DNA of 64,000 nucleotides from Psammoneis japonica (taxonomy: Eukaryota). The notes beneath the pieces are model-generated. The model was given only the letters and a program-made list of their open reading frames with translations, ran no database searches and was not told where the DNA came from. Each line of letters starts with the position of its first letter. Position 1 is the stretch's first letter. The translations under genes and the position numbers were made by a program. Below are positions 22,701-62,072 of this stretch, piece by piece. The stretch is from NCBI GenBank assembly GCA_008632985.1, contig QPGO01000005.1, positions 1,075,607-1,139,606 of the forward strand, written 5' to 3'.

Positions 22701-23986
22701 GTTTGTCCGTCTTGCCTTTCCAAGGCGCCACTTAGTTTGATTGTGAAAGCCACCGCATCTACTGTCCATTTTGAGCATTCCATAAGGTGGACATTGTCTA
22801 CAAGAATTCCTCCTGTTCCACTCAAGCTGCAAACCTTCCCATCTGTCCGATACATAAGGTTGCATCGATCTAACCTTACTTCAGTTTCGTTTGGTAGAAC
22901 AACTGCCATGGAGTGGATAGGTAGCATAAACATGCTACTATTCCAACCGCTTGCTTTCTCTTTGGCGGTCTCGAGGCTTCTTACTTGTGTATTTTCCTCT
23001 GAATCTGATGCCGGATTCGACTCGTCAGGATCTGTTGACATTAGCAATGCCTGAACCCGTCGAAATGCCTCTGCCTGTACCTTGTCAAAATGAACGGTAA
23101 TTGCTCCTGTCGCCGAACCATTGTCCTTTGAAGCACTGTTTTCTTCTCCCATGACCTCAAGTCCATTTAGAATTCCATCGAGGAATCGCCGACCCGTCAC
23201 GCGTGTAACAATTGCGCTGTATGTAAAAGGTTCTAGCAGGGGGAATCGTGTAGATGCGTCATTCCTTGCGACGGTGGCATCATCTTGAGCTGAGATTGAA
23301 TTGCAAATGACAAATGAAGAGACAGAGCCAACACTAAGTCTCTGTGTTAGCGGTGCCTTCTCACTTGGACTCGGAGACTTTTGTCCAAGCGAAGCGATTT
23401 CAATCGAATCTCCCAGAAGTAAAATGGATAAATGCTTTCCTTGGGGTGTATCCTTACTAGAATCAGGGTCGAGCGGCAATAGATCAAGCACAAGCTCCAT
23501 ATCAGTGACTCGCAAAGTCAGGTGGTCTACAATCTGCTGAAAATACCTGGCTTTCCAGTCTTGTGTTTCTTCTCCTGGTGTTGCTGTCTCGTTTGTAGTT
23601 TCTTCCGCAACAACCTGTTCCTCGAGTGGTATGGTTGCTTCGAGAAGCTCAATGTCTTCAATTTTTGTTGCGCGAAAGCGAGCTCCTGAAATCGTAAGGC
23701 TAACATTTGTGATGAGGGCTTCGCGACTATCAGAAGCTACGTTCCAAGTCCAAGAGAACTCAACCGTATCCACTCTTCCTGATACTTTCGCTTTACCTCC
23801 GCCCAGGTCAACTATTTGTTCTTTGAGGTGTATATCGCGTAAGGTAACTCGAGTATCGTGCAATAAATTAGATTCGACGAGATTAGGATCCACATCGAAA
23901 AAGGATGCGAGTGCCTTCGCAATGTATCGTGATAGCAACGCTTTCGGTGAAAGCGATGTCACGCTTTTTACGAAGGACGAGAACAT
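16780..23986 (-). CDS. Large (~2300 aa) VPS13/ATG2-like protein; exons 23986-18583, 18486-18437, 18333-16780
   Basis: The N-terminus resembles Chorein-N and the middle has beta-rich internal repeats. Two GT-AG introns join the 1883-aa and 537-aa ORFs in frame. The C-terminus has YxFGDFxRG motifs. Family call is inference. Confidence 0.65.
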
Positions 23987-24756
23987 CCTTGATATTTTTC
24001 AGTTTCCCTCTTTCTTCCCTAGTTGAACTCGCCGGATTGAATAATGATTTGATCTTGTTGTTCAGTGAGTCACAACAGCGGGGAGGCGTTTGTATTGGTC
24101 GTTGTATCTTTGTATTTTATGTGATGTGCTTTTGTGTCACGTTTCGCGAGATGCGATTGGACTTCGCGGTTTCGTTCGCGGCGGGTTCGCGGTTCGCGGA
24201 ATTTCAGTCGTAGATGTCCGGTTCTGTCATGTTCCGCGAACAATGATCTTCTTCCTCCAGTACTGAAGAAATTTCAATAGACTTTAACGTCCGTGAGTTG
24301 AACCGTTGAATCAAAAATTTGAAATCTTGTGTCAGAGCTTGGCCACAGGCGAGACAGCATTGATACCGCACGTCAAGGGCAAGGAACCTTTGAGTGCGAG
24401 TACGGCGAGTTAGTTCAGTGTGGGCTCTAGCTAGAGAAGGATAACGCATGTTATAATGTAGAGGCGGAAATTAGTGTTTTTCTCTTGTTGAGCTATACCA
24501 GGAATTGAGACAATTAAAACACCGACAACCATTGATCCCGAGAATCAAGCGTCAGTTGGTCATGTATGCGAGAGACTCTGCGAAATCGACGCCTACACAT
24601 ACATGTAGACTAGACCACTCGGTGCAGTTCAACAACTAAAGGATAACCTGGTAATAAAACGATGTGCGATATTATGTAAACTATGAATAGCATGTCTGCA
24701 TCTATACGTACATCAAGTGCCATTCAAAAAAACAAAATTGTAAAGACCAAGTGTTC

Positions 24757-28339: not shown

Positions 28340-30660
28340 TTGTTCGTTCCTTTTTGTTCACCACGGAGGAATCGACTGCTGCATTTCTTGAAACATAGCT
28401 GGCCAAAGCATGTGTCGGCATTGCTGCTCTTTCCAGCCAATTCTGTGAAGATGTGTGCATCAACGACCGGAATCGCCTTAGAAGTTTCCATTGTTGCTCA
28501 CTTTTTCAAGTGGCTCCCATCTTATCTGGGCCCCATTTCGTGCCATGGCTCTGGCATGCCTCTTCAGGTCTACCTCCATGTCTCCACCCCCCTCAGCAAT
28601 GCTGCACAAAACTCTGGCAGAGGTGTTCTGCTCCAGAAATTGCACAAGCAGGGCTTGCAACAGGCTTTTCTTCTGGGGTTCTGAGTGGCTCTGATTGAGA
28701 GCACTTTGCACTTGTCCACAGCATTGTGAAGTTTCTTTTGGAGGGAAGGGAAATTCCATCATTCACCATTGCACAAACTGTGCCACTTTGAGCATGCTTT
28801 AAAAAGCACTGCAAAATGACCAGTGGTGAAGACCAAGAAATGTGGGCCAAGAGGAAGCCTGCTGCGCTGACTCCCTGATGACCCCATTTCTGGCATCTCA
28901 GAAACACCACCCCAAGCATGAAGATTTCAATGCTGCAGTTGTTGACCTGTTGCAAGAGCATGCTTTGGATCACTGCGAAGAAGCTGAAAGCAATTTGTGC
29001 TCTTTTGCAAGCTCTCTTCAAGACCTCCATTTGCCTCAAGTGTCATTTGATTCTTTGGACTGCCCCCACTGCTTTGGGCACACAAAACTGTTTGTGTGCT
29101 GTGAAGAGGCTGTGATGACAGCTGCCAAGTTTGTCACCAAGTGCTTCAAAGCATGTCAGGAAATGCTGTCAAAGCTCTCTTTGCCAAAAATTTGTGGCAA
29201 GCACAATGAGAAAAGTCTCATTTTCACAATTTGGGATGAAAAACATGTGCCCTGAATTCTTTGCAACCACTGCTGCTGTGTTTTGGATTCATCATTCTGC
29301 CATCAAGTTGTGGGCATGAGAGCTGCAGCTCAAAAAGGAACGCTGCAGAAAAAAATCCACATGACTTGCTTTTTAACTTTTCAAGTGCACCACTTGCAAA
29401 GCCACCCCCTGGGAAGGGACATTGTCAAAATGGCAAAGTGACATTGTTGGGCCCTTTCTTTGAAGGAACACAGCTTCCCTTTCTCAAAATGAGGGTTGGC
29501 GCACAATGGTGGAGGGTGGCTGGAGGTGAGCTGGACAAAGGGCAAATGTTTTTCCCAGCGCTGATCACAAGAACATGTCAAGCATTGCAGCCTTGCCTTC
29601 TGACAGCAGCGCATTGATTGGAAGTTTTGCCCACCATTTTTGAAAGTGAAAACCTGCATCTGCCATGCTGGCTGGTGTGTCAAACCAGTGTTTGGTGGTG
29701 TGCATCAGAGGAAATTGGCAAAGAAAAGATTGTGGGGTGACAAATGAGCTTGGGTGCAGCAAGGCAGAGAGGCAGTGTGACAGTGTGTGTGGGCTTGAAA
29801 AAGAAAGCAAGAGCACTGCACAGTCTGCAGCTGCTCAAGTGCTTGCCAATGCCAGCAGCATAAAGAGAGACAAAAGCTGCTGCTGACCCAGATCAAGACA
29901 AAAACAGCATGCCACAAAAAAAAGCCCCCACACCATCATGTTCTTTTTGCTCACAGCTGTGCCAACCTGAATTTTAACCCGCCAAGGAGGCTGCTTGCAA
30001 GATCGCTTGGGCACTTGTTGGCATGCCCCAAGATGCGAATGATTTGGAGCATGCCAGGAAGTCCTTGGAAGGTCCTGGCAAAAGCTTTGGTGGACCAGGC
30101 AATGTTGTTGGCTGAGGGCACACAACTGGGGCACCAAAACCATGACATTTGGCGCTGCTGCTGTGAGAGAACATTGGTGGTGGGGGCAGAGCCAGCACTC
30201 AAAAATGCACAGTGTCTGTCATTGCCCACATTTTGCTTCTTGCACTCTCACACACCTTGATCAAGTTTGGGAAGTGCCCCCACAATTTCTGCAGCCAGAG
30301 GCGTGTGGGGCCGTGTGATGTGTGGTGGGATCCACGACACACAAGAGAGAGAGGCAGGGGGTGCTGAGCATCATGGGTGCCCACGCTTGCTTTGGACCAA
30401 TGTGTTCAAAGCACTCCCAGGCGGGTGTGTTGTTCATTGCATGCCAGACATTTGAAAATGGAGCTGACTCTTTTCTTGGAGCACGTTTGCCAGTGTGGGA
30501 AAGTCCGCAGGTGAAGAACCCAGCGGCACAGCTCCAGAGCTGATGAGACCAGCCATCTGCTTGCCAACCCAAAAGTTGTCCAGTGGAACTTTGCACTGCA
30601 TTGTAGGATGACATCAGTCAGTTGATGCATGGCAGCATGTTGTTTTCATTTGGCAGTTGG
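28340..30660. mobile_element. Block B, decayed repeat of unknown family
   Basis: Strong TA and CG depletion; fragmented Cys/His-rich ORFs; no recognisable domain or termini. Confidence 0.6.
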
Positions 30661-38333: not shown

Positions 38334-38905
38334 ATTCACATTCTCCCGGGATAGCCTCCGCGCTTTTTTTGCATGAATGCGATTTTGGTGTGCGGGCGGT
38401 GTGCGTAGCGACTGTACCAGTAGCGTCGTACCATATGTGTCTGATTGTCTGTGCTTGTCGGTGTCTTTTGTTGCGATTTTTTTGTCTTTTCTACATGGCA
38501 CCTTTCCGCATGGTCATTGCAAAAACATCAATGGGATTCGTTTTGCTTAGAGCACCGAAGAGCGAGTCACATGTGCCGGTGGTGCCCAGTGCGTGTTCCT
38601 CCACTTCAGACGAGATGATGCACGCAGCGTCCCAGTGGAGACCAACCATGCAACACGAACAACTGCTCAGCAGATGACAGTCTGCTGCAGCAGCAGGAGG
38701 TGGCCTCAACTTCACTAAACGACTGTGTGAAATGGGCATTTTTGTCAACTTGAACCCATTTTTTGCCCCGCCTCGTGACCAGCAACCAAAGCTCCAGCGT
38801 CCCTTCCTCACACCTGCTTGGCCACACTCTGGCTGCACTCCCAACACACACTGGCCTCCACTTTTGTCACTTTTTCCCTGCAAAATGCTTTCATGTCAAA
38901 CTTGC

Positions 38906-39181
38906 TGACAGAAATTGAAGGCAAATGGCAAGAACTCAAACAATGGCTCCTCGCTGCTGTCTAAATGGCAGATGAGTCTCCGCTCAGAGACCGTTGCAGG
39001 AGCCGAAAGACGCACAAGTCGGTGCAATTGGGCTGCTGTCATTGTTCTTGTGAGCCTTGTGGCTCGAAAGCAAACTGCATCACGCGCGAACGCGTGGAGC
39101 TAAAGCACACAAAACTGTGCACGGCAAATTGAACAGCGCGCGACATTTTGCGCGCACCCAAATCCTGCTCAAATCCTGTCA
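38906..39181 (-). repeat. LTR copy A (276 bp, inverted)
   Basis: TGACAG...CTGTCA termini; reverse complement of copies B and C. Confidence 0.9.
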
Positions 39182-39579
39182 CTCCCCAGTTTGCTTGAGG
39201 AGTCACAGAAACAGATTTGACTTCGGATTGACTAAAGAACTTTGGAGTCAAAGAACCAAAACATGAGGAGACAAGAGAGGATCAAGATCCGAGAGCAATG
39301 TTGCATTCTCCAAGTGGGTCATCTTGAGATGAGCTGTGTCTCCCCAACTGCAGATGCCGTTGTGCTTTTCAAAGCTCAAGGCACACTTGGGATCTTGTGG
39401 GATTCCACATCCACACTTGCAATGGAAGGAGCAAAGCTTGGTCTGGTTGACAATGTTGAACGGCGGGGCAACATTGCAGGCGGCATGGCATTTGCACGAC
39501 TCGGGGAGCAGAGCAAGCATTGGTTCAAAGGCACAAGCGGTGGTCTTGTGTTCCACCAATCCGACTGCATCTCCTGAGA

Positions 39580-40415
39580 GACTGATCCAATTGGAGAAAC
39601 GAGTCTCAAGGTGCAAGCCTTCAGGGATCGGATTGGAGCAAGACATCTTGTGGTGCAAGGCTGCAGATGTCTGGTTGGGGCAATCAGTCCCGTGCTGCAA
39701 GACTTCTGGGATCCAAAAGGACTTGCCAGTCTTGTGACACGAGTCTTCGGGGATCCAGTCAGGAGGCCAAGTCTTGAGGTGCGAGACTTGGGGGATCCAA
39801 TCAGGAGGCCGAGTCTCATGGCACAAGACTTGAGGGATCCAATCCGGAGGCCGAGTCTTGAGGCATGAGACGTGGAGGATCCAATTGGGAGGCCCGGTCT
39901 CGAGGCACGAGATGTGGAGAGTCCAGTTGGGAGGCCTGGTCTCAAGGCACAAGACTTGGGGCATCCGATCAGGAGGCCCAGTCTCGATGTACGAGACTTG
40001 AGGCATCCAATCAGGAGGCCTGGTCTCAAGGCACGAGACTTGGGGGATCCAACCAGGAGACCTGGTCTCGAGGTGCGACACTTGGGGCATCCAATCAGGA
40101 GGCCTGGTCTCGAGGTGCGAGACTTGGGGCATCCAATCAGGAGGCCCAGTCTCGAGGTGCGAGACTTGGGGGATCCAACCAGGAGGCCCAGTCTCGAGGC
40201 ACGAGACTTGAGGCATCCAATCAGGAGGCCTGGTCTCGAGGTGCGAGACTTGAGGCATCCAATCAGGAGGCCTGGTCTTGAGGCACGAGACTTGGAGCAT
40301 TCAGTCAGGAGGCCTGGTCTCAAGGCACGAGACTTGAGGCATCCAATCAGGAGGCCCAGTCTCGAGGTGCGAGACTTGAGGCATCCAGTCAGGAGTCCTG
40401 GTCTCATGGTGCAAT
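39580..40415 (-). repeat. 42-bp tandem array, inverted copy
   Basis: Same unit order as 42580-43410. Confidence 0.92.
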
Positions 40416-41751
40416 GCTTGGAGGATCCGAAGACAACGAAGCTGCTTGGATGTCCTGAACTCCCCATCTGATGAACCGGTTGAACTGTTGTGAACAGATT
40501 CAATGACGGGAAAAGGAGGATTGACAGGATTTGAACAGGATTTGGGTGCGCGCAAAATGTCGCGCGCTGTTTAGTTTACCGTGCACAGTTTCACGTGCTT
40601 TAGTTCCGTGCGTTCGCGCGCGATGTAGTTTGCTTTCGAGCCACAAGGCTCACAAGAACAACAACAGCAGCCCGATCACACTGACTTGCACATCTTTCGG
40701 CTCCTGCAACGGTCTCTGAGCAGAGACTCATCTGCTGTTTAGACAGCAGCAAGGAGTTGTTGTTTGAGTTCTTGCCATTTGCCTTCAATTTCTGTCAGAT
40801 TGACAGTCTTGCTCATTGTCAACCCATTGAGCAACCGCCATCATCGTCGTTGATTTGCCGACGACGCCATCTCAATTCTGCGTGGACCTCCGCACGTGTT
40901 CTACGTACATCGGCAAGTCTACGCGCATTTGGGCACCAGGGCATCGGCAGGAAGTTAATGTCACCGTCAAGTCTCCTTGCCGCTGGACATCTGGATTGAT
41001 CACACTGCCTTTGATCGCTGAAGACATGCATTCAACGGTCACATCCAAGTCTGTCCTTGATCCTCATCCCTTGACATGTCCATTCAACGGTCAACGGTCA
41101 AGAACCCTGCATGTTCAAGGATCTCCGTCGCTGAAGACACACATGTGTGCATGTTTCACGGCCAAGGACTTGAACCCACTCTTTGGACTGTGGCTTTGCT
41201 GCCACTCTACAAGCACGCCGAGTCCATTGCACCTGATCTACCCCGGACTGCTGGTGCTCTGCAGTTCCACTGGGTCCACGAGGACGACTGTGAGAGCAAG
41301 CAGCCGTGATTGCAGCCTACGTTGGGGTGAGGGTGTTTTCCCGCGTTTGTTCGTTCGTCCACAGCGCCCAACGCCTGCGTCAACTGGCCAGCCTGATCGG
41401 GAAATCCAACCGACATAAAATGAGAACGGTTCGGGGGTCTTGTCCACCTCCAGTCAGCTCACCTGCAGGGGTTTACAACCCGCTGCTCCGCTCGCAAGCA
41501 ACCCAAAGCGCCGCTGGCTGCGGGTTCGGACGTGCCGGCACAACTCTACGGACCGGACAGGAAGTTTGGCACTTGACAACGAATGGGACAGCACAACCCG
41601 GCGACTTCTGATTAAAAGACAGTCCAAGATTTCAAGTCAAGTCTAGCTCAAGTCAAGTCTTTTTCAAGCCAAGTTCCAAGTCAAAACTCCGAGTCAAGAT
41701 CGCGCTCTAGATTGGATCCTGTCTTTTGTTTCTACTGCACCGTCCTCCGTC

Positions 41752-43747
41752 ATGGTTCTCACGTGACAGCAACAAACCGAAAGCTTCAAATGCATTCTAG
41801 GCACTGTGCTCAATCAAGACGATGACAGCCCTCTTCGTTCTGCCCTGTCCATCAATGGGGGTTGAATCGTGCGAGGAATTGTTCACGTTCTCACCCACCC
41901 AAATTGACGCCCTCACTTACAGAGACGGCGCCAATGTAGTGCCTTTGCCATGGACCCACAGAAACCTCCTAGCAGCTTTGATCAGCTTCTACTTTGTCAA
42001 AGTTTGCAACGGTGATGATGTGACCAATGAACCCCAGTTGCTCACACCCGAGGAATTTCGCAACTGCCGCCTTGGTCCGGACTGCTTGACCTCTCTAGCC
42101 ACTGGCGCAGCACCCTCCGCACCTGTGCCGAGTCCCTTGCCATCCAAACCAGGTGAACCCAGTGCCATTTTGACACCAGCCTTGCACTGTGCCGCCACTC
42201 AGGTGTCCCCCAGAAGTGGTGTCAGTCGCGCCCCACATGTCTTGACCAACCCGCCTGCAAGCAACCTCGGCCCAGTGCAGGATTGCAGCCCTTGCACAGA
42301 CCCGCACTTCGAGACCAGTTGGGAGACTCCACCCATGGCTTCCAAAGCTACAGCCTTTGCACCCCGCAAACCACTTGCTGCCAACCTCCACATGTCGACC
42401 ACTGTCACCCTTCACAGCCTTCGTTTGGGAGGTGATGGAGATGACAACTTGCTTCTCGCATCTCCTGATGGGGAGCCTCCTTTTCTCGTCATTGAATCTG
42501 TTCACAACAGTTCAACCGGTTCATCAGATGGGGAGTTCAGGACATCCAAGCAGCTTCGTTGTCTTCGGATCCTCCAAGCATCGCACCATGAGACCAGGAC
42601 TCCTGATTGGATGCCTCAAGTCTCGCACCTCGAGACTGGGCCTCCTGATTGGATGCCTCAAGTCTCGTGCCTTGAGACCAGGCCTCCTGACTGGATGCTC
42701 CAAGTCTCGTACCTCGAGACCAGGCCTCCTGATTGGATGCCTCAAGTCTCGTGCCTCGAGACCAGGCCTCCTGATTGGATGCCTCAAGTCTCGTGCCTCG
42801 AGACTGGGCCTCCTGGTTGGATCCCCCAAGTCTCGTACCTCGAGACTGGGCCTCCTGATTGGATGCCCCAAGTCTCGTACCTCGAGACCAGGCCTCCTGA
42901 TTGGATGCCCCAAGTGTCGTACCTCGAGACCAGGTCTCCTGGTTGGATCCCCCAAGTCTCGTACCTCGAGACCAGGCCTCCTGATTGGATGCCTCAAGTC
43001 TCGTACATCGAGACTGGGCCTCCTGATCGGATGCCCCAAGTCTTGTGCCTTGAGACCAGGCCTCCCAACTGGACTCTCCACGTCTCGTGCCTCGAGACCG
43101 GGCCTCCCAATTGGATCCTCCACGTCTCATGCCTCAAGACTCGGCCTCCGGATTGGATCCCTCAAGTCTTGCGCCACGAGACTCGGCCTCCTGATTGGAT
43201 CCCCCAAGTCTCGCACCTCAAGACTTGGCCTCCTGATTGGATCCCCGAAGACTCATGTCACAAGACTGGCAAGTCCTTTTGGATCCCAGAAGTCTTGCAG
43301 CACGGGACTGATTGCCCCAATCAGACATCTGCAGCCTTGCACCACAAGATGTCTTGCTCCAATCCGATCCCCAAAGGCTTGCACCTTGAGACTCGTTTCT
43401 CCAATTGGATCAGTCTCTCAGGAGATGCAGTCGGATTGGTGGAACACAAGACCACCGCTTGTGCCTTTGAACCAATGCTTGCTCTGTTCCCCAAGTCGTG
43501 CAAACGCCATGCCGCCTGCAATGTTGCCCCACCGTTCAACATTGTCAACCAGACCAAGCTTTGCTCCTTCCATTGCAAGTGCGGATGTGGAATCCCACAA
43601 GATCCCAAGTGTGCCTTGAGCTTTGAAAAGCACAACGGCATCTGCAATTGGGGAGACACAGCTCATCTCAAGATGACCCGCTCGGAGAATGCAACGTTGC
43701 TCTCGGATCTTGATCCTCTCTTGTCTCCTCATGTTTTGGTTCTTTGA
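41752..43747 (+). pseudogene. Deleted gag-pol remnant with a 14-aa repeat
   Basis: MVLT*QQQTESFKCILGTVLNQDDDSPLRSAL (frameshift)...IDALTYRD..PLP. The 3' segment NQTKL.SF.CKCGC.IP.D...NG...W.D resembles the copia YKYGY.IP.D...NG..W.DA pre-RT linker. Confidence 0.7.
42580..43410 (+). repeat. 42-bp tandem array, about 17 clear plus 3 degenerate units (ETRPPDWMPQVSYL)
   Basis: Unit GAGACCAGGCCTCCTGATTGGATGCCTCAAGTCTCGTACCTC. Confidence 0.95.
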
Positions 43748-46700
43748 CTCCAAAGTTCTTTGGTCAATCCGAAGTCGAATCTGTTTCTGTGACTCCTCAA
43801 GCAAACTGGGGAGTGACAGGATTTGAGCAGGATTTGGGTGCGCGCAAAATGTCGCGCGCTGTTTAGTTTGCCGTGCACAGTTTTTTGTGCTTTGGTTCCG
43901 CGCGTTCGTGCGCGATGCAGTTTGCTTTCGAGCCACAAGGCTCACAAGAATGATGACAGTGGCCCGATCACACCGACTTGCATGTCTTTCGGCTCCTGTG
44001 ACGGTCTCTGAGTGGAGACTCATCTGCCATTTAGACAGCAGCAAGGAGTTGTTGTTTGAATTCTTGCCATTTGCCTTCAGTTTCTGTCACTTGCTAAAAA
44101 TGACGTCCAAAGGTGTTTGCCTGATGGCGAGAGCTTCCTCTCTATTTGGCAGAGTCACTCAAGACACATCTTCCCACTCAAATGCTCCGCTTCTGGCTCT
44201 CAAATCCTTCCAGCGCAAAGCTCCTCCTCTTCACTGGCAGCCATTTGTCCAGAGCAGTGCCCTGCAAATGGTGGCATGCCGAAGGGGGCGAAGGGTTGTG
44301 TGTTGTGTGCAACACTTTTTGGCCACTGCCATCTGTCTGACAGCTGAGGTTTCCAAAGGGGGCTGTTGCTCAAACAACCTTCAACATCGCCCCCTTCCAT
44401 GCCTGCATCAAGGTTGCTCTTGTCCATGTGCAGGCACACTGGTTTGGGTGGCCCGAACGTTTTGGTGGGGTTGTGGGAGGGTCTTTTGACAAAGACACTG
44501 TTGCAAACACAGCCGCTGTCTTGACTTGCATCCCTTCCTTTCAGCACGAGGATCAATGCCCTCAATGTGCACGATGTCACTTCTTCATGTTCACTCATTT
44601 TCCAAGGTGTTGGCTCAAACATTTTTGAACTTGAAGCTGAGGCAGGGAAAACCAGCGGTGACATCTCAGGCTCAATCTTGGGCGGTGTTCCTGAACACTG
44701 TGCTGGCAAGAAAGAAAGACTCAAAAGTCTCAACAAACCATTTGCAACAGCTGTCATTTTGGCGCCACCACCCAGTTGAACTTGAGGTGTTCTTGGATGC
44801 ACCGCCCCATTCTTGCGGCTCATGTGGGTGTCTGACTTGGTGAAACCCACGCTGCCGCACCTCCAATTGCCACAAGCTTTGTCTGGTTTTGAAAATGCAT
44901 GCAGCAACTCCAGCACACCACTTGCAGCATCATGAAATCATGAGATGAGAGGAGCATTTGAAGATCTTGGGCATCTTTGTTTCTTGCCACCAACGTGGTT
45001 GACTCTGAAGTGGTCAGAGCAAACAAACTCATCTCTCTTCTTTTTGCTGCATCACAATTCTACGCAAGCGCCAGTGGGGTTGTCCCATGTGAGAGTGTGG
45101 TGGCATGCCAACCTCCTTGGGCACTTTGGGATGTTGGGCAGTTGCACCAATGACAGAGAAACCAAAAGGCATTGGAGGGGATGCTCTGTTGTGTCTGCGT
45201 TCGGGAGAGTGGCACCACCATGGTGTGGTGTCTCTTTGCATTTTCTTTCCCAATGTCAGTGTGTTTTCTGCGTCAATTAAATTCTGCGTGATTCAGCAAT
45301 TTCCAAGTCAGCTGTTCCAGCACAAATTTCATGTGCAACCCTGCATGTTTGGCCAGAATTTTGAGGTGATGACTGTTTCAGGTTTGTCTTTTTGTTCTTC
45401 TCACCAATGCACTTCCTTTGAGTTTTCTTCCCAATGAGCTGCAATCCATGATGGACATTCTACGGTGTTCCAAAGTGGGTCATCATGAGTCTTTCTCAAG
45501 TGGCTTGCATCTCCAAGTCTTGGTGTTGCTCCTCTTGCTCTTCGATGTTGCAGTTTCAGCACACAATTTCTGTGCAATTCTGTGCATGACAGAAATTTCA
45601 TCCGGCATTTCCGACCATCATTTCCCTTTCTTTGTTGGGGTCCATGTTGGACTTTCTTGGGTGTTTTCATCCCAGGAATTTCTCTCACTTCTCTTCAAGC
45701 ATGTTGTCTTTGGAGACAGACACGTGTTTGGTTTTCTGCAGTGTTTGTTTTGGTGTCTCCCAAGTGGTGTGGTTGGGCTTGTCCATTCTTCGAGGCACAG
45801 CAACTGTGGTTGCCACGTGACAAGCATCCAGTTGGTTGCTGTCCCGACTTCAAACAAACAGCCTCTTTCTGATGGTGCATTGACGGCATTGCCTTCGGAC
45901 AATGTGTCAATGGCATTGTCTCTCTGACAACGTTTGACAGCATTTTAATTGTCCCTGCCACCCTTCATGGGTGCTGGGGAATGTGGGTGTGCTGTGGTCG
46001 GTGTTGGCGTGGGTGGCAGCGAGGCAGCAGTGAAATGGATTTCCAGCTTTTTTTCTTTCTGCTGCATCATTTAAATTGAAAGCAATGCTTGATGAGGGCC
46101 GTGGATGTGGTGCATTGCAATTTCTCTTTTTGCAGCTGAGCCTGCATTTTTGGCAATGCACAACTCATTTGCATTCATCTTTGTCTTCCAGAGCCACTTT
46201 GGCTTGCTCAATGGTGGTGGCTGGTGCTTTCCTTTGGCTTCAAAAGGTGCCCCTTTTTGTGTGCATCACAATGCTTTCCACAAAAAAGTGTTTTCTTCAC
46301 ACACTTGTTGTCCTTTTTGTTCTTTGATGCTGAGTGGCGCGTGCTCTTGTTTGTGAGTTGCGCTGTTTTCTTTTTTCTTTTTTCTTCATTTCTGACTTTG
46401 CTCAGCGGGTGATCTTCTCCTCTCCACATCACACTTCATTTTCATGGTTGCAGATTCCACCTGTGGAATGCAAGTGCTTCAAAATTGTGTCGTGTTTGTG
46501 ATTTGGAATGTGCGCGTGCACTGACGCTACAAAACGCAGCACTGTGATGACGATTTTTAGCCATGGTCTGCTGTGCTTGCAATTGAATGGCACAGAAAGC
46601 AAACGTGCCCAGCTCTTCCCAGCTGTGATGCAACCATGCAGTTTCAAGAAGATTTCTTTGCTGAAAATGTGCAGCGCAGAAACACACCTGGTTTTGACAA

Positions 46701-46825
46701 CATTGTTGCACAACAAATGTGCGAGTGATGGCTGGCATGCACTGCTTTTGTCTGGCAGCTCCGAGAGTGCGTGCAGTTGCAGCGGTGTGGTGATGTGTGG
46801 ACATCCCCACCCACAGGTGGATGGC

Positions 46826-47232
46826 GATGGGTTCCAGTCCTGGCCAGGTGGGACTCCGTGTGACATTGGGCCCGCAGAATTCTGCGTGCGAGCTCCGCAG
46901 TGAATTTGTCAAGCAATGAAAATGCAAATGATCGCCAACAGAAAAAGAGGCAATTTTGTGAATGCATCTCCTCCTCCACACTTCCAGTGCATCATCAACA
47001 GTTTGCCCGGGTGTGTTCTTCAGACATCAAAGAACACACCCAGAGCATTTTCATTCTCACAAATGTTGAAAACAGAAAGCCTTTGGCTTCGCAAAATGGG
47101 GAGCATGGGGCAATTTCATAGAATGTCACATGCAGAAATCTGTGTGCGCAACATGCCACACGATCCAAAAAACTCTTGATGTCACAGCACAGCAGCACCA
47201 GTGCGAGGTCCCACCCAGAGCTGGAGCGCATC
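46826..47232 (+). mobile_element. MITE copy 3 (407 bp), hypermutated
   Basis: Degenerate TIRs GATGGGTTCCAG / CTGGAGCGCATC; TSD TGGC; collinear with copy 1. Confidence 0.88.
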
Positions 47233-47950
47233 TGGCACACGGTGTTCGAGGGACAGTGCATCACAACATGTCGTCCAACCAAGACCTCCCCATCCCTGCT
47301 CCACCCGCCCCACCTTGGAACACCAAAACCCGTTTTCAACACCCAGCTGCCCATGCCGCATGTGCCTGCGCCCAACAATCCCCATCCGCCATCCTCCCTG
47401 CCGCCACCTCCACCTGTGGCAAACCATCTCTGCCGAAAACGCTTTGGCCCAACCCACCACTCTTCTACACCGTCACAATGGGGTCTGCAGAGCCTGAGCC
47501 TTGCAATTGCCAAATCACTCGCTGACCAACTAACCCGCTACTCCACCAAACTACAATCTCAAACATCAAACCCCAACTCGAAATCCATCCCTTTTCCCAC
47601 ACCTAGCCCTACATGACTCAGTGCGCAGTTCCCACCATTGCTCCGCGTCTGTCCCTCCCCCGCGCCACTGGGTGACGTTGGTTGCACGTGAACTCCACGC
47701 GCGCGTGCTGCTAGCACAGCAGAGGTAATTAGTTTCCCCAATCAATATAAAATGCTACGAATTCGGAAACAATTGCGCGTTTTCGTGCGCGAAGCTCAAA
47801 TTTTCATCCCGAAGCAACGATCGGAGCTTCGCGCAAGATTTGTGTAGAAATGCGTAGAAAGCATGCTAGAACGAGAAAATGCCATCTGAACACTGCTCCT
47901 GCATCATCACCATGATACTGTGGCGTCGTTCGTGATCGTTTCTTACCATC

Positions 47951-49048
47951 ATGCCACCCACAAAGAAACCAAAGCGTCGTGTCGCTGCTAAAACACCTCG
48001 AGATTCAGTGCCACATCCTTCTCGTGGTGGTGCCAGAGGCTGTCCACAGGCTCAACGGGACGAGGCAATGAGGGTGAGAGACCTTGGTTGGGAAAACCGA
48101 CCCGAGTTTCAGCAGCTCCGACAAGAGGGAATGCGTCCTTCCTCTTCAACCACAAGACGACATGCCGCTCGTGAACGAGATCATGGTCACTGCAGACCCT
48201 GTGCCATGAACGGCAATGAAGTGGCTGTGGTGCTGCACGGCTTCATGCGCTTCCTGCTTGTGTGCCACAGACTTCTATTCCCAAAATGTGCCGGTGCTGA
48301 AATGAATGCGTGGCTGTGGAACACCACTCCACCTGGTGCAGAGAGACGATTTTATGGTGGATCACAAACAACCGAGGCAGAAGATCATGCTGGTCTTTCT
48401 CGGAAACGCGGTGCAACAACGGCAAGACAAGCTGAGTTGCCAACCAACATTCAGAAGTGGTGCAATTTCTGGCACTTGCCATGCCCTTATAGAATCGCTG
48501 ACATGAGCTCTGAAAATGCTGTTGATTTTGATCAAGCTGCCATGTTCATTGAAATTGCCGATCGTGGGTGTGGAAAAGCATGCGTCGGGAATCGCTGCAA
48601 TGAGACCGGTCCACATGGGCACAGCGAGAAATGTGCACTTTCAGTGGCGGTGACTGGCAGCCAAGCCAGAGAAAGATGGCTTGTCTTTGAAGCTAAAGGT
48701 GGAACAACCACAGGAGATGTCCTTGCACTTCTGGAGATGATCACAGCCGACATTGGAGATGGAAACGATCAACGCCGTCGCACAATTTTGTGTGACAACC
48801 TGACATCGCACAGAAGTCCAGTCATCCGGCAGTGTGTCCATCTCCATGGCCACCGTTTCATGCTGCGTCCACCCTGCAAGCCGTGTGATGGACCAATTGA
48901 ATGTGCACTCAATGCAATCCAGCAGCATCTCACGCCAAAAATGCATGAGATCCGCACACCCGAGCAGCTGCAGGCGGAAATCGAGACCTGTCTCCGCGGT
49001 GTCGCGGATTTCAGGTCCCACTTCCTGCACTGCGGCTACAATCCATAG
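47951..49048 (+). pseudogene. DD34E transposase; frame open but heavily Tyr>Cys/His substituted
   Basis: VDFDQA, ILCDNLTSH and RPPCKPCDGPIE, with 34 residues between the second D and the E. Confidence 0.85.
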
Positions 49049-55223: not shown

Positions 55224-58200
55224 AGGAGGACCTTCGCTCTTGGAAAGCGTTGTTTGTCCGTCCTGCATGTTCTTTGTTGAATAACACCATCGAGAAAACA
55301 TCATACAAAAATTAGCGGCTTCACCACGGAACGAGAAAAAATGCATTTTTAGTAGCAAACTTCGGTTGAGAGTGAGGAGCAACCATGGTTTTCCTGCGTG
55401 TTTAGCATCACGGCTCATTGCATGCGATTGGAGCGAACCAATCTGATTCGACAGAGAGGCGATTACCTCGAGCCAACGTTTTATATCCATGATGAACAGG
55501 CTTTGAATAGACCCTATAAGGGTGTTCTTTTATCATTCTTTGTAGATAATTCCGTAAGGGAGTTCTTTTTCCATTCTTTGTGATTAATTCCGTAATGAAG
55601 TGTAAGCGTCTCATCCGCATCAGGATAGGATGTAATGCATTGTCAAGGCCAGAAAGAAGTGAACGAGGAACACAATTGTCGTTCCCGCGTTAGTGAATTA
55701 AGGATGTATCTACGTGCTGCGGTCTAATTTAAAATAGCTCGCATTTCCCGCACTTCACCGTGACATTTTGACCTGCCTCGGAACACCCCCGAACACTTGT
55801 GTTTCCGTCAAACCCTCGTGAGGGCTGTCAGACGGCCAACAAGAGCTGCACATTTAGCACTTCAAATTCCACTTGTCGGCCTGTGCCCTGTTGTCAGGTC
55901 GAAAAAACCGCCAATTTTTGCTAAAATCGGATGGCATGCTGGTGTCACCTTTCAGACAACAGGTTGCCACCCATCTCCAAGCCAGCTGGGCTGCCAATTG
56001 TGGCACTGCAACACTTGCGACCATTCTCAGCATCACTTTCACAATGGCTGCGAGACAACAAACTCAATGAGGCACAACGTGTTGTGGAAGAGAGTGGAGC
56101 CCACTTGGGTTTGCACCCAAAGTGTGCGAGCGTCCATTGTGCCAGTCATGAGGGGCCCAGAGTTGCCAACAAAGCAACTCAAGAGGTCAGGGGAGAAAAT
56201 GGCAAAGAGAAGGAGAGAGCGGCAAGGCAACAAAACATTGCACTTCTTGTGCCATTGGCAATGAGTGGATCAACAATCGCGCTCCTTTGGGCAAGAGTGA
56301 GGAGCCCTGGAAGTCAACCCCACAGGAGCCAGCAGTTGATTTGGAGAGCAGCTTGTGTTGTCAGACAAAAAGGCTGCAGAGCAAAGGGTGGGTGCACACA
56401 GATGACTTTGGCAAGACAAAATGCACAAACACTGCTTTGAGCTGGCAGAGAGCCGTGCTTGGGGACAGAGAAAAGCCAGCATCAAAGCAAAGGAAAAGCA
56501 AAGCACCAGCCTGCTGAAGCTGACAAACCCCATGGAGAGGAGAAGAAGCTGGGCATGCTCTGGTCTTCTCAGCCTTTTTGGTGCAGGGTGTTTTGCTCTT
56601 TGCCTGGAGAATGCTGAGAAAAGATTGTCAAAGTGCGCACACATTCTTTCTCACCCATCTTGCAAACAGATGGCGCGTTTGAGCTGCCTTCACAAAGTGA
56701 CCCCTTTTGCAATGATCATGATGCTGCAGTGTGCAAGGCAACAAAATGACAGGAAAAACATGCTTCAATGTGCTGCTGCTTGTGGGGTGTTGCAGATGCA
56801 AGCAAGTGGCCAAATGCAGTGGCGCACATTCATTGTGGGACCCCACAAATGTGTGCGAAGGGACCCGCAACCCAGAGCTGTGTGGATTTTTGCGTGCAGG
56901 CATGGCATTGTGAACAAAAGCAATTGCTGTGCTTCTGGATGATGATCTTCTTTTGTCTTCCATGGGTGGGAACAATCCCAGCCATGTTCGTCAGTGAAGA
57001 TGCCATCGCCAGTCTTGCCAAAAGTTGACCTGCCTTCAAAAACAATTGTGCAAGTGCGTGCAACACAATGCTGCATGAAATGAGGGATGCTGGAGCAGCA
57101 GGCCTGGTGTGTTGACATCATGTGTGCACTTTGCATGACAACACTGTGAAAACCACATCATCACATGCAACATCCTCACTCTCCAAACTCAAGCCAAAGA
57201 AGGTTTTTGTGGGCAGCCATGATGAAAATGCAACAATTCTCCCTGGGGGCAACAAGTGTGCATGTTCTCAATGGCGCAACACAGGGCTGTCAAATGTTCT
57301 TTCCTTTGTCGACACATGCAACATTTTTGGTTGAAAACAGCCCAAAACAACATCTTGTCATTGGCCTGCAAACCTGAAAGACCCCTGTGCATGACCCCGC
57401 ATGTCACAGCTCAAAGTTGTGTCTGGGCTGAAGCTCCAGTTGCCCAAAACTCTGTGCTTTTCAGTGGCTCTGCACTTCAGCAGACTTGGGCTGAGGCAAA
57501 GCTGTCAACTTGTCTTGAAGAGCAGCACAGCAAAACTTGAATGAGAGCACCACTTTTGATGCCTCCATCATGAGACCGATGCCGGAACATGTGACATTGG
57601 GTGAGCTCTCAAGGGCAAGTTTTGCAACATTTTCTTTTGTTGTGCTCACAAGTTGATTGTTTTTAACATCTTTGTTGTTGGGGTGAAGTTTTCTTGCCCA
57701 TTGCTTCAGAAAGAATGAGAGTCAGAAGAACAGCAAAGAACAGATGAAAATTTTGTTGCTCGGGTCAAATGTCCAAGGAGCCACTCCCTGTGCCAGTGAT
57801 TGGTGCACCCACTTTCTAAGATGTGAGCCACCTCAAGAGCTGTGGATGACCAGCTCAGATGTGTGCTCCATCAACAACAGATCTCCAAGAGGTGCCACAC
57901 AACAACTTGGGAACTTTCTCTTTGCTCTGCGGCATCAGCCTGGCAAGCCTGGTCTGTCATGAACTCCAGCCCAGCAGCTTCCAGCATCTCAAGTGCTTGC
58001 CAAGCTTTGCCGTTCATTCCAGCCACCCGTGGTTGTCACATTCAAGGACTCACAGCAAGATCATGCTGTCAATTTGATGACAGTGCACAACGAAACTTCT
58101 CACAGTCTGGGTTAATTTGGTTGTCAAGCTGAGCAACTGGGGAGCCACTTCCAGGCAGATCTGTGCTTGTTTCTGCTCACATGAAACCACCCACCAGAAA

Positions 58201-59153
58201 AGCTGGGAACACCTGCTCTCCCTTTCTGTGCACACACAAGTGAGCAAATGTGGTTGCATCCAATGCACTTCCACTTGGACCTTGGAAATGGCGCTGCCAG
58301 TTGACTCACCTGTGGCAGAAATTTTGATGGACAGCACAGAAACGTGTGTGAAAGTGCAATGGCTGACAGCAACACCCTTCCCACAGGGTCAACAAAGACA
58401 TTCCAGGTGTGTGATTGCCACTCAAAAAAATTGACATTGATGGTCGAGCACCACCACACTTGGCACTTTTTGTGTGGCAACACCCAACCACAATGGCTGG
58501 GCGGCTCAATCTGTGCCACCCCTTTTGTTGAGCTGGCCAATCGGTGCATTTGCTCTGGCATGTGCTTCAGTCAGAGAGAGCTTTGAAACCTCTGCCACCC
58601 ACAGACTCTGGCGAATGGAGGCAACAACAGCAAAAATGCATGTGAGAAGCTGTCATGTGAAAAAAGAGGCATTTCAAAGAAAAAATTGAGCAGGAATCCA
58701 TGCCATGTGCTCCCTCATCAGAGTGCGCATTGCAGTGATCAACACTCCCATTTTCACAGTGATTTTCATTCCTTTTGTAGATGATGTTTTTGCAGTTTCA
58801 AACCTTGTCAGTTGTGCAGCTGGCAACAAATCTTTGTCTGTCAAAGTCACTTGTTTTTGCTGTGGAGTCCTCTTTTTAACCACAAGAAATCAACATTGAT
58901 TTTAAAGCAGCTCCCCTTTTCCCTGTCTTTGTGCATGCATTCCTTTGCTGCAGAAGCTGGCAATCAATGTCATCTGATCACCACACGTCACATGTTGATT
59001 TTTGCATTTGACGTGATGTGTGCAATGAATTTGTGCCGCTTTCCCAGCCCAACAATGAGCTGTTGCTTTTGCTTTTTCACATGGGTTGTCAATGAACACT
59101 GAGTCAATGCAATGGTGTCAGCTGCATTGCATTTTCAACTGGCCTGTGCTGGA

Positions 59154-59700
59154 GACACGTTCCAGGTCTGGGTGGGACCTCATGCTGCTGAACTGTGACA
59201 TCGACAGTTTTTTGAATCGCGTCGCATGTTGCGCACGTGCATTTCTACGTGATGTTGGCAAAATTTTGTGTGACTACAGTGCAATTGTCAGGCGATCCAT
59301 TCAACAACTTGGAATCTTTCGAAAATGACCCGTGATGCAAAAAGCACAAAACAACTGTGGGCGCCTGTGGAATCTGCGCGTTTTTGTGCTGAAACTGTCA
59401 TGTTCACAAAATTTGTGCAAAAACAGACTTGACTGTCATCGGGTCAGGTGCACTTTTGCAAATGCATTGAAGAAAAATGCACCTGATCAGAAAACAGTCA
59501 AGTCCATTTTTCGCAAAGTTAAAATTCACTGAGGACAGACAGACAGACTTTTCCATGATTTTCTTGGTGCTGTTCCACACACTTCTGCGCAAATGACTCT
59601 AAAGCGCAAAAGATTGCTGTTGAATGTTTTTTCCTTCTACGCCATTCTTGAGTGTCTTAAGAATGGGGCAATGCTCCTGAATTTCAACCGCCACACCTTT
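59154..59700 (-). mobile_element. One end of a longer member of the MITE family
   Basis: GACACGTTCCAGGTCTGGGTGGGACCTC... aligns with 12094-12240; family hairpin at 59642-59666; no partner end seen. Confidence 0.8.
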
Positions 59701-61770: not shown

Positions 61771-62072
61771 AAAAGGACATTGTTGTCAGCCAGCTGTCTG
61801 GCAACAACGGATTCAGACTCCTCTGATGACAAGTGCAATTTGTTGTTGGCGGCAACCATGCTGTCCAGCAATGAAAGCATTCATTGTCAGATGGCTGTTC
61901 AGCAACAACGCACTCAGATTCCTCTGACAATGAGCGCAATTTGTTGTCAGCAGTGACTGCAGCACCCAGCAACAAAAGCATGTTGTTGTCAGACGGCTGT
62001 CTGGCAAGAACATGCACTCAGATTCCTCTGACAATGAGTGCAAATTTGTTGTCGGTGGTGACTCAATTGAGC
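61771..62072. repeat. Three degenerate ~101-bp tandem units
   Basis: TTGTCAG..GCTGT..GCAA..A...TCAGA.TCCTCTGA...AGTGCAA.TTGTTGT recurs at ~101-bp spacing. Confidence 0.75.

What the first reader, a model, noticed from the sequence alone, without database searches (positions are those of the whole stretch)
39580..43410. Sister arms show one TAC codon mutated independently to TGC and CAC
Seen: across eight aligned 42-bp units the variable residue reads Y,C,C,Y,Y,Y,Y,Y in the right arm and C,H,C,H,H,H,C,Y in the left arm. One unit is TGC in one arm and CAC in the other, best explained by ancestral TAC hit on opposite strands. The LTRs agree: TTTACC vs TTTGCC, ATGTAG vs ATGCAG, TTTAGT vs TTTGGT. 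Inference: mutation happened after integration in dsDNA, since RNA editing before reverse transcription would be strand-biased.
Basis: seen in the sequence. Interest (0 to 1): 0.82.

Follow-up and report, generated by a model that had tools for sequence, protein, structure and literature searches.

The report
TpA-targeted hypermutation in a diatom retrotransposon
Three copies of a repeat made in one retrotransposon insertion of a diatom-like alga have since diverged almost only by changes that turn TA and CG steps into TG or CA, the mark of a DNA-editing process so far reported only from one unrelated alga.

Summary
The two 1,616-nt inverted arms differ at 60 sites, 58 of them transitions. Units 2-9 of the 42-bp array read Y,C,C,Y,Y,Y,Y,Y and C,H,C,H,H,H,C,Y.

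The arms belong to one composite LTR-retrotransposon insertion (38906-44089). It has a single 5-bp target duplication, three equidistant LTRs, and an empty-site form in public reads.

Mismatches concentrate in pyrimidine-purine steps (47 of 59; p=7e-9) and toggle among CG, TG, CA and TA.

The best-fitting reading has two decays ending in TG/CA: CpG loss (about 0.18 per site per copy) and much faster TpA loss (about 0.75).

The wider window supports this direction. About 20 kb of non-genic DNA is almost TpA-free (observed/expected 0.03, CG 0.35, TG/CA about 1.7). Host genes keep ordinary TpA, even at synonymous positions.

A paralogue pair, and related contigs that carry TA where this copy has TG/CA, agree.

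TpA to TpG/CpA hypermutation was measured directly in Bigelowiella natans (2026 preprint). This would be a second lineage, acting on retrotransposons together with CpG decay.

CpG-only decay with hot and cold sites is not excluded. The family state at the flagged codon was not seen.

The parts
38901..38905 (.). Left copy of the 5-bp target-site duplication (CTTGC)
   Evidence: Same 5 bases at 44090-44094. A public contig joins 38899 to 44089, skipping 5,189 bases, with 7 letters that fit on either side.
38906..39181 (-). Left LTR copy, 276 nt, inverted
   Evidence: Aligns without gaps to the other two LTRs, with 28 and 27 differences.
39182..40521 (-). Inverted partial copy of the element's 3' internal part (left arm). 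Carries a TGG-to-TGA stop at 40301.
   Evidence: The Trp is conserved in the other units, so the stop is derived.
39738..40405 (-). Left 42-bp tandem array
   Evidence: Tandem Repeats Finder: period 42, 15.9 copies.
39989..40285 (-). Left-arm span holding the variable codon of units 2-9 (C,H,C,H,H,H,C,Y)
40508..40520 (+). 13-nt purine run at the end of the left arm, one base from the start of the 5' LTR
   Evidence: It corresponds to the longest purine run on the element's minus strand. Only 2 runs of 9 or more occur in 3,016 nt, and none on the plus strand.
40522..40797 (+). 5' LTR (TGACAG...CTGTCA)
40798..41751 (+). Leader region. Many related contigs lie here, and in many of them TA stands where this copy has TG or CA.
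41752..43747 (+). Decayed ORF. ATG at 41752; TGA at 41764-41766 where two homologues have Arg; frame change near 41860; open from 41801 to 43747 (648 aa). No Pfam family.
42590..43254 (+). Right 42-bp tandem array
   Evidence: Tandem Repeats Finder: period 42, 15.8 copies.
42710..43006 (+). Right-arm span holding the variable codon of units 2-9 (Y,C,C,Y,Y,Y,Y,Y)
43803..43813 (+). Purine-rich tract directly upstream of the 3' LTR (candidate polypurine tract)
   Evidence: Read from the sequence.
43814..44089 (+). 3' LTR
44090..44094 (.). Right copy of the target-site duplication

Best explanation
WHAT IT IS. A non-autonomous LTR retrotransposon entered this site once, as an aberrant composite cDNA. 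The composite is an inverted copy of the element's last 1.6 kb joined to a full element, so it carried three LTRs and two arms that were alike at the start.

WHAT HAPPENED NEXT. Each copy was then changed independently, on both DNA strands, by a process confined to non-genic or silent DNA. That process removes the two self-complementary pyrimidine-purine steps:
- TpA becomes TpG or CpA. This is A-to-G or T-to-C, at about 0.75 per site per copy.
- CpG becomes TpG or CpA, at about 0.18 per site per copy.

THE FLAGGED CODON. The Tyr codon TAC of the 42-bp units is a TpA site. It went to TGC when one strand was hit and to CAC when the other was hit.

SHOWN: the structure, the single target duplication, the transition-only spectrum, its concentration in these steps, the equidistance of the LTRs, and the TpA-free compartments that spare genes.

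INFERRED:
- The direction at TpA.
- The chemistry. Adenine deamination by an ADAT/TadA-like enzyme is the proposal made for Bigelowiella. A thymine modification such as 5hmU that mispairs is another possibility.
- That CpG loss is deamination of methylcytosine.
- That the composite arose when a nascent minus-strand DNA ending in a purine run primed plus-strand synthesis in place of the polypurine-tract primer.
For: STRUCTURE
- Arms, three LTRs and arrays.
- CTTGC on both sides, and a contig of the empty site.
- The junction lies at the longest minus-strand purine run.

SPECTRUM
- 58 transitions of 60 mismatches.
- 47 of 59 mismatches lie in pyrimidine-purine steps (p=7e-9).
- 8 TG-against-CA pairs between the arms and 8 such sites among the LTRs. 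These cannot be single changes from the other copies' state.

INDEPENDENCE OF THE COPIES
- LTR distances are 28, 27 and 26. Private changes are 14, 13 and 12, interleaved along the LTR.

DIRECTION
- Model fit: double sink AIC 1160.5 (p=0.176, q=0.745); CpG-only 1201.1; TA-only 1178.6.
- The adjacent CpG is kept in 13 of 17 units, while the codon is CG in 0-1 of 17.
- Under the double sink the left arm lost more of both kinds (CG 12:3, TA 5:1). Under CpG-only the two asymmetries conflict (p=0.014).
- TGA where two homologues have Arg, and TGG-to-TGA in the left arm, polarise the C-to-T part.

CONTEXT IN THE WINDOW
- 19,911 bp of non-genic compartments hold 46 TA (o/e 0.03), with CG 0.35 and TG/CA 1.72-1.75. 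The figures for 27,000 bp of genic DNA are TA 0.60 and CG 0.97.
- In 9 host ORFs, TA o/e at codon positions 2-3 and 3-1 is 0.60 and 0.66.
- Paralogue pair: the 27 TA of the ordinary copy face TG 9, CA 10, other 8 and TA 0 in the TpA-free copy.
- In 13-14 of the 34 displayed element rows, related contigs carry TA (share 0.26-0.87) where this copy has TG or CA.
- The right flank has 2 TA in 411 nt. One of them is CA in the other haplotype, and another TG is TA there.

PRECEDENT
- De novo TpA-only A-to-G/T-to-C hypermutation in mutation-accumulation lines of Bigelowiella natans (bioRxiv 10.64898/2026.01.13.699255; abstract, Results and Discussion read).
Against: - No outgroup was obtained for the flagged codon. 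The read table showed only 41 of 186 variable places, none of them at the codon.
- A CpG-only model with hot (0.91) and cold (0.14) CpGs fits as well by likelihood (-570.70 against -572.27; AIC 1165.4 against 1160.5).
- The right array keeps 6 of 7 candidate TAC sites. That is unlikely at q=0.745 (p=0.0015), so the rate is not uniform.
- Under the model the internal arms were already TpA-poor at insertion (about 11 TA in 1,340 nt), while the LTR was not. This is unexplained.
- Units of a tandem array are not independent samples.
- All read evidence comes from one sample of one study, as contigs. The empty-site contig has only 23 letters on its left side, under the tool's 31-letter rule.
- Editing of cDNA before integration could also hit both strands.
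Confidence: 0.65

Rival explanations
1. CpG decay only. The variable codon was CGC, and the TG/CA sites were CpG. Methylcytosine deamination on either strand gave TGC or CAC, and TAC arose by a second C-to-T hit. Some CpGs are hot and others cold.
For: - CpG decay certainly occurs here. There are 22 CG-against-TG/CA pairs, and majority-rule polarisation at LTR CpGs agrees.
- CGC survives in unit 13 of the right arm.
- The two-class CpG model has the best raw likelihood (-570.70).
- Diatom transposons are CpG-methylated (PMC9998398, passages read).
Against: - It needs adjacent CpGs in the same units to differ more than tenfold in loss (13 of 17 kept against 0-1 of 17).
- It makes TpA a product, yet non-genic DNA has TpA o/e 0.03 and no 1-kb bin exceeds 0.76.
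- The arm asymmetries conflict (p=0.014).
- The single-rate version fits much worse (AIC 1201.1).
Confidence: 0.17
2. The differences predate integration. Possible sources are copies made from different co-packaged RNAs, frequent template switching, editing of RNA or cDNA inside the particle, or later gene conversion from other family members.
For: - The family is large and polymorphic at the same kinds of site (5,851 contigs laid in X1; transitions 160 of 178 variable places).
- TG/CA dimorphisms also exist in the family at 41369-41370 and 41558-41559.
Against: - The 5' and 3' LTRs of one element are copied from the same template, yet differ as much (26) as either does from the left LTR (27, 28).
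- Private changes alternate about 25 times in 276 nt, too often for switching or conversion tracts.
- Sense-strand RNA editing would give TG only, but CA is as frequent.
- The same changes are seen in the single-copy flank and in compartments with no detectable retroelement.
Confidence: 0.12
3. Fungal-type repeat-induced point mutation (RIP) acting on the duplicated arms.
For: - Transitions only, duplicated DNA, both strands.
- Many diatoms encode DNMT4 enzymes related to fungal RID, of unknown function (PMC9998398, passages).
Against: - RIP turns CpA into TpA and makes relics AT-rich and TpA-rich. Here TpA is nearly absent, and G+C is the same in both compartments (0.48-0.50).
- Single-copy flank DNA is also affected.
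Confidence: 0.03
4. Assembly or base-calling artefact at modified bases.
For: The changes sit at CG and TA, where base modifications could mislead some long-read base callers. This point is recalled, not tested.
Against: - Contigs of a public run at about 48-60x show the same TG/CA dimorphisms and an equally TpA-poor right flank, with only 6 differences in 412 nt.
- Host genes in the same assembly are intact and have ordinary composition.
Confidence: 0.03

Closest known systems
TpA-targeted hypermutation of integrated viral DNA in Bigelowiella natans (Mettrop et al., bioRxiv 10.64898/2026.01.13.699255; abstract, Results and Discussion read)
   Same: Changes at TpA giving TpG or CpA depending on the strand. 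The process is regional and spares ordinary genes. The long-term trace is TpA depletion with CpA+TpG excess in clustered windows. DDE and reverse-transcriptase domains are enriched among TpA-poor genes.
   Different: That organism is a rhizarian; this one is diatom-like. There the targets are giant-virus and virophage insertions, shown by de novo mutations. Here the target is an LTR retrotransposon plus about 20 kb of unannotatable DNA, and the process is inferred from copies. Depletion here is far deeper (o/e 0.03 against a cluster cut-off of 0.43) and comes with CpG loss. The words CpG, diatom and retrotransposon do not occur in that text. Its supplementary tables were not seen.
Repeat-induced point mutation (RIP) of fungi
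   Same: Works like it in outcome: repeated or foreign DNA is riddled with transitions on both strands and its reading frames are destroyed.
   Different: Opposite chemistry at CpA/TpA. RIP makes TpA and lowers G+C. Here TpA is removed and G+C stays the same.
Methyl-CpG deamination in methylated transposons (diatom DNMT5-dependent methylation, PMC9998398, passages read)
   Same: CpG goes to TpG/CpA on either strand. CpG o/e is 0.35 in the affected compartments against 0.97 in genes.
   Different: It does not account for TpA loss or for the TA-against-TG/CA differences.
APOBEC and ADAR editing marks in retroelements (PMC4866542, search listing only)
   Same: Hypermutation of LTR elements by deaminases, readable from copy comparisons.
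   Different: Those act on cDNA or RNA before integration and are strand-biased (G-to-A, or A-to-G on the sense strand). Here both strands are hit equally, and flanking unique DNA is affected.
5-hydroxymethyluracil marking of transposons in dinoflagellates (PMC11572971, passages read)
   Same: A thymine modification enriched on repeats, reported to prefer T in TA and TC. It is a conceivable route to T-to-C at TpA.
   Different: It is not known to be mutagenic there and is not known from diatoms. Nothing here tests it.

Membership tests
LTR retrotransposon (non-autonomous) | Direct long terminal repeats with TG...CA ends | tested here: met
   276-nt LTRs at 40522-40797 and 43814-44089, plus an inverted third copy.
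LTR retrotransposon (non-autonomous) | Short target-site duplication | tested here: met
   CTTGC flanks the whole composite. There is a contig of the empty site.
LTR retrotransposon (non-autonomous) | Polypurine tract before the 3' LTR, and a primer-binding site after the 5' LTR | tested here: inconclusive
   A purine-rich tract lies at 43803-43813. No primer-binding site was recognised. The window holds no tRNA gene for comparison.
LTR retrotransposon (non-autonomous) | Reverse transcriptase and integrase genes (autonomous form) | tested here: not met
   No Pfam family in the 648-aa ORF or the 195-aa ORF. Hence it is filed as non-autonomous.
TpA-targeted hypermutation (Bigelowiella type) | Changes fall at TpA and give TpG or CpA | tested here: met
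   8 of the 10 arm sites with TA in either arm differ, 4 as TG and 4 as CA. There are a further 8 TG-against-CA pairs between the arms and 8 TG/CA-dimorphic sites among the three LTRs.
TpA-targeted hypermutation (Bigelowiella type) | Direction is A:T to G:C | tested here: inconclusive
   Supported by model fit, the adjacent-CpG test, composition, the paralogue pair and family shares. No outgroup at the codon itself.
TpA-targeted hypermutation (Bigelowiella type) | Regional targeting that spares ordinary genes | tested here: met
   The 1-kb profile is bimodal. Synonymous-phase TA o/e is 0.60-0.66 in 9 host ORFs, against 0.03 in non-genic compartments.
TpA-targeted hypermutation (Bigelowiella type) | De novo occurrence at very high rate in living lines | not testable with these tools
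   Needs mutation-accumulation or pedigree sequencing.
Fungal RIP | C-to-T at CpA that creates TpA and yields AT-rich relics | tested here: not met
   TpA o/e is 0.03, and G+C is equal in both compartments.
Methyl-CpG deamination | CpG goes to TpG/CpA with CpG depletion in the affected DNA | tested here: met
   22 CG-against-TG/CA pairs. CG o/e is 0.35 against 0.97. LTR CpG changes are mostly private to one copy.
Methyl-CpG deamination | Cytosine methylation of the region | not testable with these tools
   No methylation data.
Pre-integration RNA editing (ADAR-like) fixed by reverse transcription | A-to-G on the sense strand only, confined to retro-copies | tested here: not met
   CA outcomes equal TG outcomes. 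The unique flank and unannotated compartments are also affected.

The most novel reading that the evidence does not exclude
Diatoms, or a close relative, have a chromatin-targeted DNA-editing defence. It deaminates adenine at TpA, and perhaps cytosine at CpG through the same or a coupled activity. It converts every silent insertion into TpA- and CpG-free sequence without changing G+C. It shares its origin with the process seen in the rhizarian Bigelowiella. That would make it an old genome defence across the stramenopile-alveolate-rhizarian (SAR) algae, functionally parallel to fungal RIP.
Probability: 0.4. Interest if true: 0.85.

Novelty: new member of a known kind. Interest (0 to 1): 0.72.

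Why it matters
TpA-directed DNA hypermutation has so far been reported from one preprint on one chlorarachniophyte. I found nothing else: literature searches, the last of which returned only that preprint as relevant.

A second case in a diatom-like genome would show three things:
- The process is not a curiosity of one species.
- It acts on retrotransposons as well as integrated viruses.
- Given time, it can strip nearly all TpA from non-genic DNA.

The composite insertion is a natural experiment. It holds three LTRs and two arms that started alike at one known moment. From them, per-site loss can be read directly: about 0.75 for TpA, 0.18 for CpG, and roughly 0.005 for other sites.

The signature also gives a simple whole-genome screen for affected species: TpA o/e near zero, with TG/CA excess and unchanged G+C. 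This makes the search for the enzyme a tractable comparative problem. Candidates are ADAT2/TadA-like deaminases, a TET/JBP-type thymine hydroxylase, and DNMT4.

Tried and rejected
SEARCHES THAT GAVE NOTHING USEFUL
- No whole genome is held for the window.
- No other copy of the element in the window.
- The 648-aa ORF had no hit in the word-indexed protein search, at near or shorter lengths.
- The exhaustive HMMER search gave 103 hits. Of these, 101 lie on the repeat region of unrelated repeat proteins. Only P0072 and P0085 match the N-terminal part, and neither carries a name.
- A degenerate LTR pattern found nothing in metagenome contigs.
- The protein atlas did not place the organism.
- Searching solved structures with the DDE_3 relic gave only chance hits, so Tyr-to-Cys/His could not be polarised there.
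- 136 ORFs of the TpA-poor compartments gave only the DDE_3 match, one RNA-polymerase domain at a border, and one chance hit.
- No tRNA genes, and no primer-binding site recognised.
- Earlier notes of this scan: nothing on this genome and nothing that bears on it.
- No RNA holder was listed among the sequencing runs.
- The window's own right flank was not among the contigs laid. I draw nothing from that gap.

READINGS CONSIDERED AND REJECTED
- RIP: TpA is depleted, not made.
- APOBEC-type G-to-A editing of cDNA: no strand bias.
- Sense-strand RNA editing: CA outcomes are as frequent as TG.
- A mosaic made by template switching or conversion tracts: about 25 alternations in 276 nt.
- A uniform genome-wide TpA bias: synonymous TpA in genes is ordinary.
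- Selection against UpA in mRNA (PMC3829696, search listing only): the depletion is deepest outside genes.

A SECOND ROUTE TO THE COMPOSITE
Nested insertion of one element into another in opposite orientation, followed by a microhomology deletion at the shared CTGTCA ends, remains possible. It is disfavoured because the three LTRs are equidistant and because the junction sits at the purine run.
Full report
1. WHAT IS THERE

Structure. The region 38906-44089 is one composite insertion.
- A complete 3.57-kb LTR element lies on the plus strand. Its 276-nt LTRs are at 40522-40797 and 43814-44089, with TGACAG...CTGTCA ends.
- Directly before it lies an inverted copy of its own last 1,616 nt (38906-40521). 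That copy brings a third LTR (38906-39181).
- Each arm holds a 42-bp tandem array of about 16 units. On the right the array lies inside a 648-codon open frame.

One insertion event. The same five bases, CTTGC, flank the whole composite. A contig of a public run joins 38899 to 44089 and skips 5,189 bases, with 7 letters that fit either side. That is the empty site. Only 23 of its letters lie left of the joint, under the tool's 31-letter rule. However, 23+7 equals the 30-letter overlap expected where a k=31 graph branches; that k is my recollection of how such contigs are built. The left-flank contig ends exactly at 38906.

The inner junction. The left arm ends in a 13-nt purine run, one base before the TG that starts the 5' LTR. 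This run corresponds to the longest purine run on the element's minus strand. Only two runs of 9 or more occur in 3,016 nt, and none on the plus strand.

My inference from this is that a nascent minus-strand DNA ending in that run served as plus-strand primer in place of the polypurine-tract RNA. A DNA primer is not removed. The result is a cDNA with U5 ends on both sides, which integrase could insert with a single target duplication. A nested insertion followed by a microhomology deletion is the alternative.

The element.
- It has no reverse transcriptase or integrase.
- The ORF is decayed. After the ATG at 41752 comes a TGA where two distant homologues have Arg, and then a frame change.
- 5,851 contigs of run X1 lay on the 6-kb stretch at 80% likeness or more, so the family is large. 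The tool warns that summed depth is not a copy number.

The organism. Its ALG3 protein finds diatoms first (58% Cyclophora, 52% Ditylum and Thalassiosira) and brown algae lower. Its Pol I subunit is equally distant from yeast and human. An HSF-type gene lies next to the insertion. I call it diatom-like.

2. THE OBSERVATION

It holds exactly.
- The arms differ at 60 of 1,616 positions: 58 transitions and 2 transversions.
Unit 3 is TGC on the right and CAC on the left.
- 47 of 59 mismatches lie in pyrimidine-purine steps, which make up 685 of 1,613 positions (p=7e-9).
- Counted as dinucleotide pairs between the arms: CG/CG 56, CG against TG or CA 22, TG against CA 8, TA/TA 2, TA against TG or CA 8.
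- The three LTRs differ pairwise at 28, 27 and 26 positions. There are 14, 13 and 12 private changes, interleaved along the LTR, and one three-state site.

3. WERE THE COPIES ALIKE AT THE START?

- The 5' and 3' LTRs of one element are copied from one template, yet they differ as much from each other as from the left LTR. That is what a star-like history from one moment gives.
- Private changes alternate about 25 times in 276 nt. This rules out conversion tracts or template switching between two templates.
- LTR divergence (27 of 276) far exceeds the divergence between the window and the empty-site haplotype in the right flank (6 of 412; Fisher p=6.7e-7). The internal arms (33 of 1,340) do not exceed it (p=0.26).

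4. DIRECTION OF CHANGE

Two arms alone cannot give the direction. The evidence is as follows.

(a) The CpG part. This is polarised as C-to-T by three observations:
- At LTR CpG sites the CG state is usually shared by two copies.
- The TGA faces Arg in homologues.
- TGG-to-TGA occurs in the left arm at a Trp kept in all other units.

(b) The TG-against-CA sites. Their ancestor must have been CG or TA, with every copy changed. In the LTRs there are 8 such sites, while 12 CpGs are intact in all three copies. One CpG rate cannot give both.

Fitted models:

Model | lnL | AIC | Fitted rates
CpG-driven decay, one rate | -591.57 | 1201.1 | CpG 0.294
TA and CG both decaying to TG/CA (double sink) | -572.27 | 1160.5 | CpG 0.176, TpA 0.745
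TA-driven only | -580.28 | 1178.6 | TpA 0.848
CpG with hot and cold classes | -570.70 | 1165.4 | 0.91 and 0.14

The internal data therefore favour the double sink but do not exclude hot CpGs.

(c) The adjacent CpG. In the array, the CpG directly 5' of the codon is kept in 13 of 17 units in each arm. The codon's first two bases are CG in 1 of 17 and 0 of 17 (p=6e-5 and 5e-6). Units of an array are not independent, so this is suggestive rather than exact.

(d) Arm asymmetry. Under the double sink the left arm lost more of both kinds (CG 12:3, TA 5:1; pooled 17:4, p=0.007). Under CpG-only the two asymmetries point in opposite directions (p=0.014).

(e) The family. In 13-14 of the 34 displayed element rows, other contigs carry TA, at shares of 0.26-0.87, where this copy has TG or CA. 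Six of these shares are 0.54 or more. Only 41 of 186 variable places were displayed, and none lies at the codon.

5. THE WIDER WINDOW

This is what tips the balance.
- A 1-kb profile is bimodal.
- 19,911 bp of non-genic blocks hold 46 TA (o/e 0.03), with CG 0.35, TG 1.72 and CA 1.75, at unchanged G+C.
- 27,000 bp of genic DNA have TA 0.60 and CG 0.97.
- The sequence in these blocks is complex, not simple repeats.
- In nine host ORFs, TA o/e at the synonymous-permissive codon phases is 0.60 and 0.66. Genes are therefore spared and the process is targeted.
- One paralogue pair has a copy in each compartment. The 27 TA of the ordinary copy face TG 9, CA 10, other 8 and never TA in the TpA-free copy.
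- A DDE_3 transposase relic in a TpA-poor block has 0.8% Tyr, 4.9% Cys and 4.9% His.
- The single-copy right flank has two TA in 411 nt. One of them is CA in the other haplotype. A TG is TA there, and a CA is CG.

A process that made TpA, as fungal RIP does, cannot leave such DNA.

6. WHAT IS KNOWN

A 2026 preprint reports mutation-accumulation lines of Bigelowiella natans. I read its abstract, Results and Discussion; its supplements were not available.
- 231 of 302 new mutations fell in two integrated viral regions.
- All but one were A-to-G or T-to-C, and all of those were at TpA, giving TpG or CpA.
- The rate was about 6e-7 per site per generation.
- The authors found clustered TpA-poor, CpA+TpG-rich windows and proposed an ADAT2-like DNA adenine deaminase.
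- The text does not mention diatoms, CpG or retrotransposons.

Other searches found no further report of TpA hypermutation. Two further points from the literature:
- Diatoms often encode DNMT4, related to the fungal RIP enzyme, with unknown function (PMC9998398, passages).
- In dinoflagellates, 5hmU marks transposons and is reported to prefer T in TA and TC (PMC11572971, passages).

Both are leads only.

7. VERDICT

The arms record independent, both-strand decay of TpA (to TpG/CpA) and of CpG (to TpG/CpA) after one aberrant retrotransposition. TAC giving TGC or CAC is its clearest trace.

What remains open:
- The family state at the codon.
- Why the right array kept 6 of 7 TAC (p=0.0015 at the fitted rate).
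- Why the internal part was already TpA-poor at insertion.
- Whether the CpG and TpA losses share a cause.
- The enzyme.

Noticed in passing
window 6001-8000, 9001-12000, 13001-16000, 29001-30000, 44090-47000, 56001-64000: Blocks of complex, unannotatable DNA almost without TpA (46 TA in 19,911 bp; some 1-kb bins have none) and poor in CpG. TG/CA excess is 1.7-fold and G+C is unchanged. Edges against genes are sharp.
   Followed up: partly
window 8380-8900 and 46760-47300: About 70%-identical paralogues, one in ordinary DNA and one in a TpA-free block. Every TA of the first is TG, CA or another dinucleotide in the second. The first copy contains a 14-nt perfect hairpin stem near 8625-8660.
   Followed up: partly
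window 47936-49045 (+): 370-codon open frame with a weak DDE_3 transposase match (24.6 bits, below Pfam's cut-off). It has almost no Tyr and excess Cys, His and Arg. It looks like a transposase relic rewritten by the same process.
   Followed up: partly
window 44000-47600 and other TpA-poor blocks: With TAA and TAG nearly absent (TAA 347, TAG 298, TGA 1,346 in the window), long open frames appear in several overlapping frames on both strands. ORF length is therefore no evidence of genes here.
   Followed up: yes
window 40521/40522: The inverted arm ends in the element's longest minus-strand purine run exactly where the 5' LTR begins. This suggests that a DNA end mimicking the polypurine-tract primer created the inverted partial dimer.
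   Followed up: partly
window 41752-42200 (+): The N-terminal part of the element's ORF is homologous to two short unnamed proteins from public data (P0072, P0085; tblastn E 6e-15 and 2e-13 against this small target). No Pfam family matches. It may be a Gag-like domain of an undescribed element group.
   Followed up: partly
window 38899-44095 against run X1: An empty-site form of the locus exists in the only public sample that holds this DNA. Its right flank differs from the window at 6 of 412 positions. The three differences shown are TG/TA, TA/CA and CA/CG.
   Followed up: partly
window 20571-21331 (-), inside the 1,887-codon ORF 18335-23998: A roughly 340-bp tandem duplication at 79% identity inside a very long ORF that has no Pfam family.
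   Followed up: no
window 1887-5445 (-): RNA polymerase I second-largest subunit gene, split over at least three frames (introns or frame changes). Its 5' end abuts a TpA-poor block.
   Followed up: no
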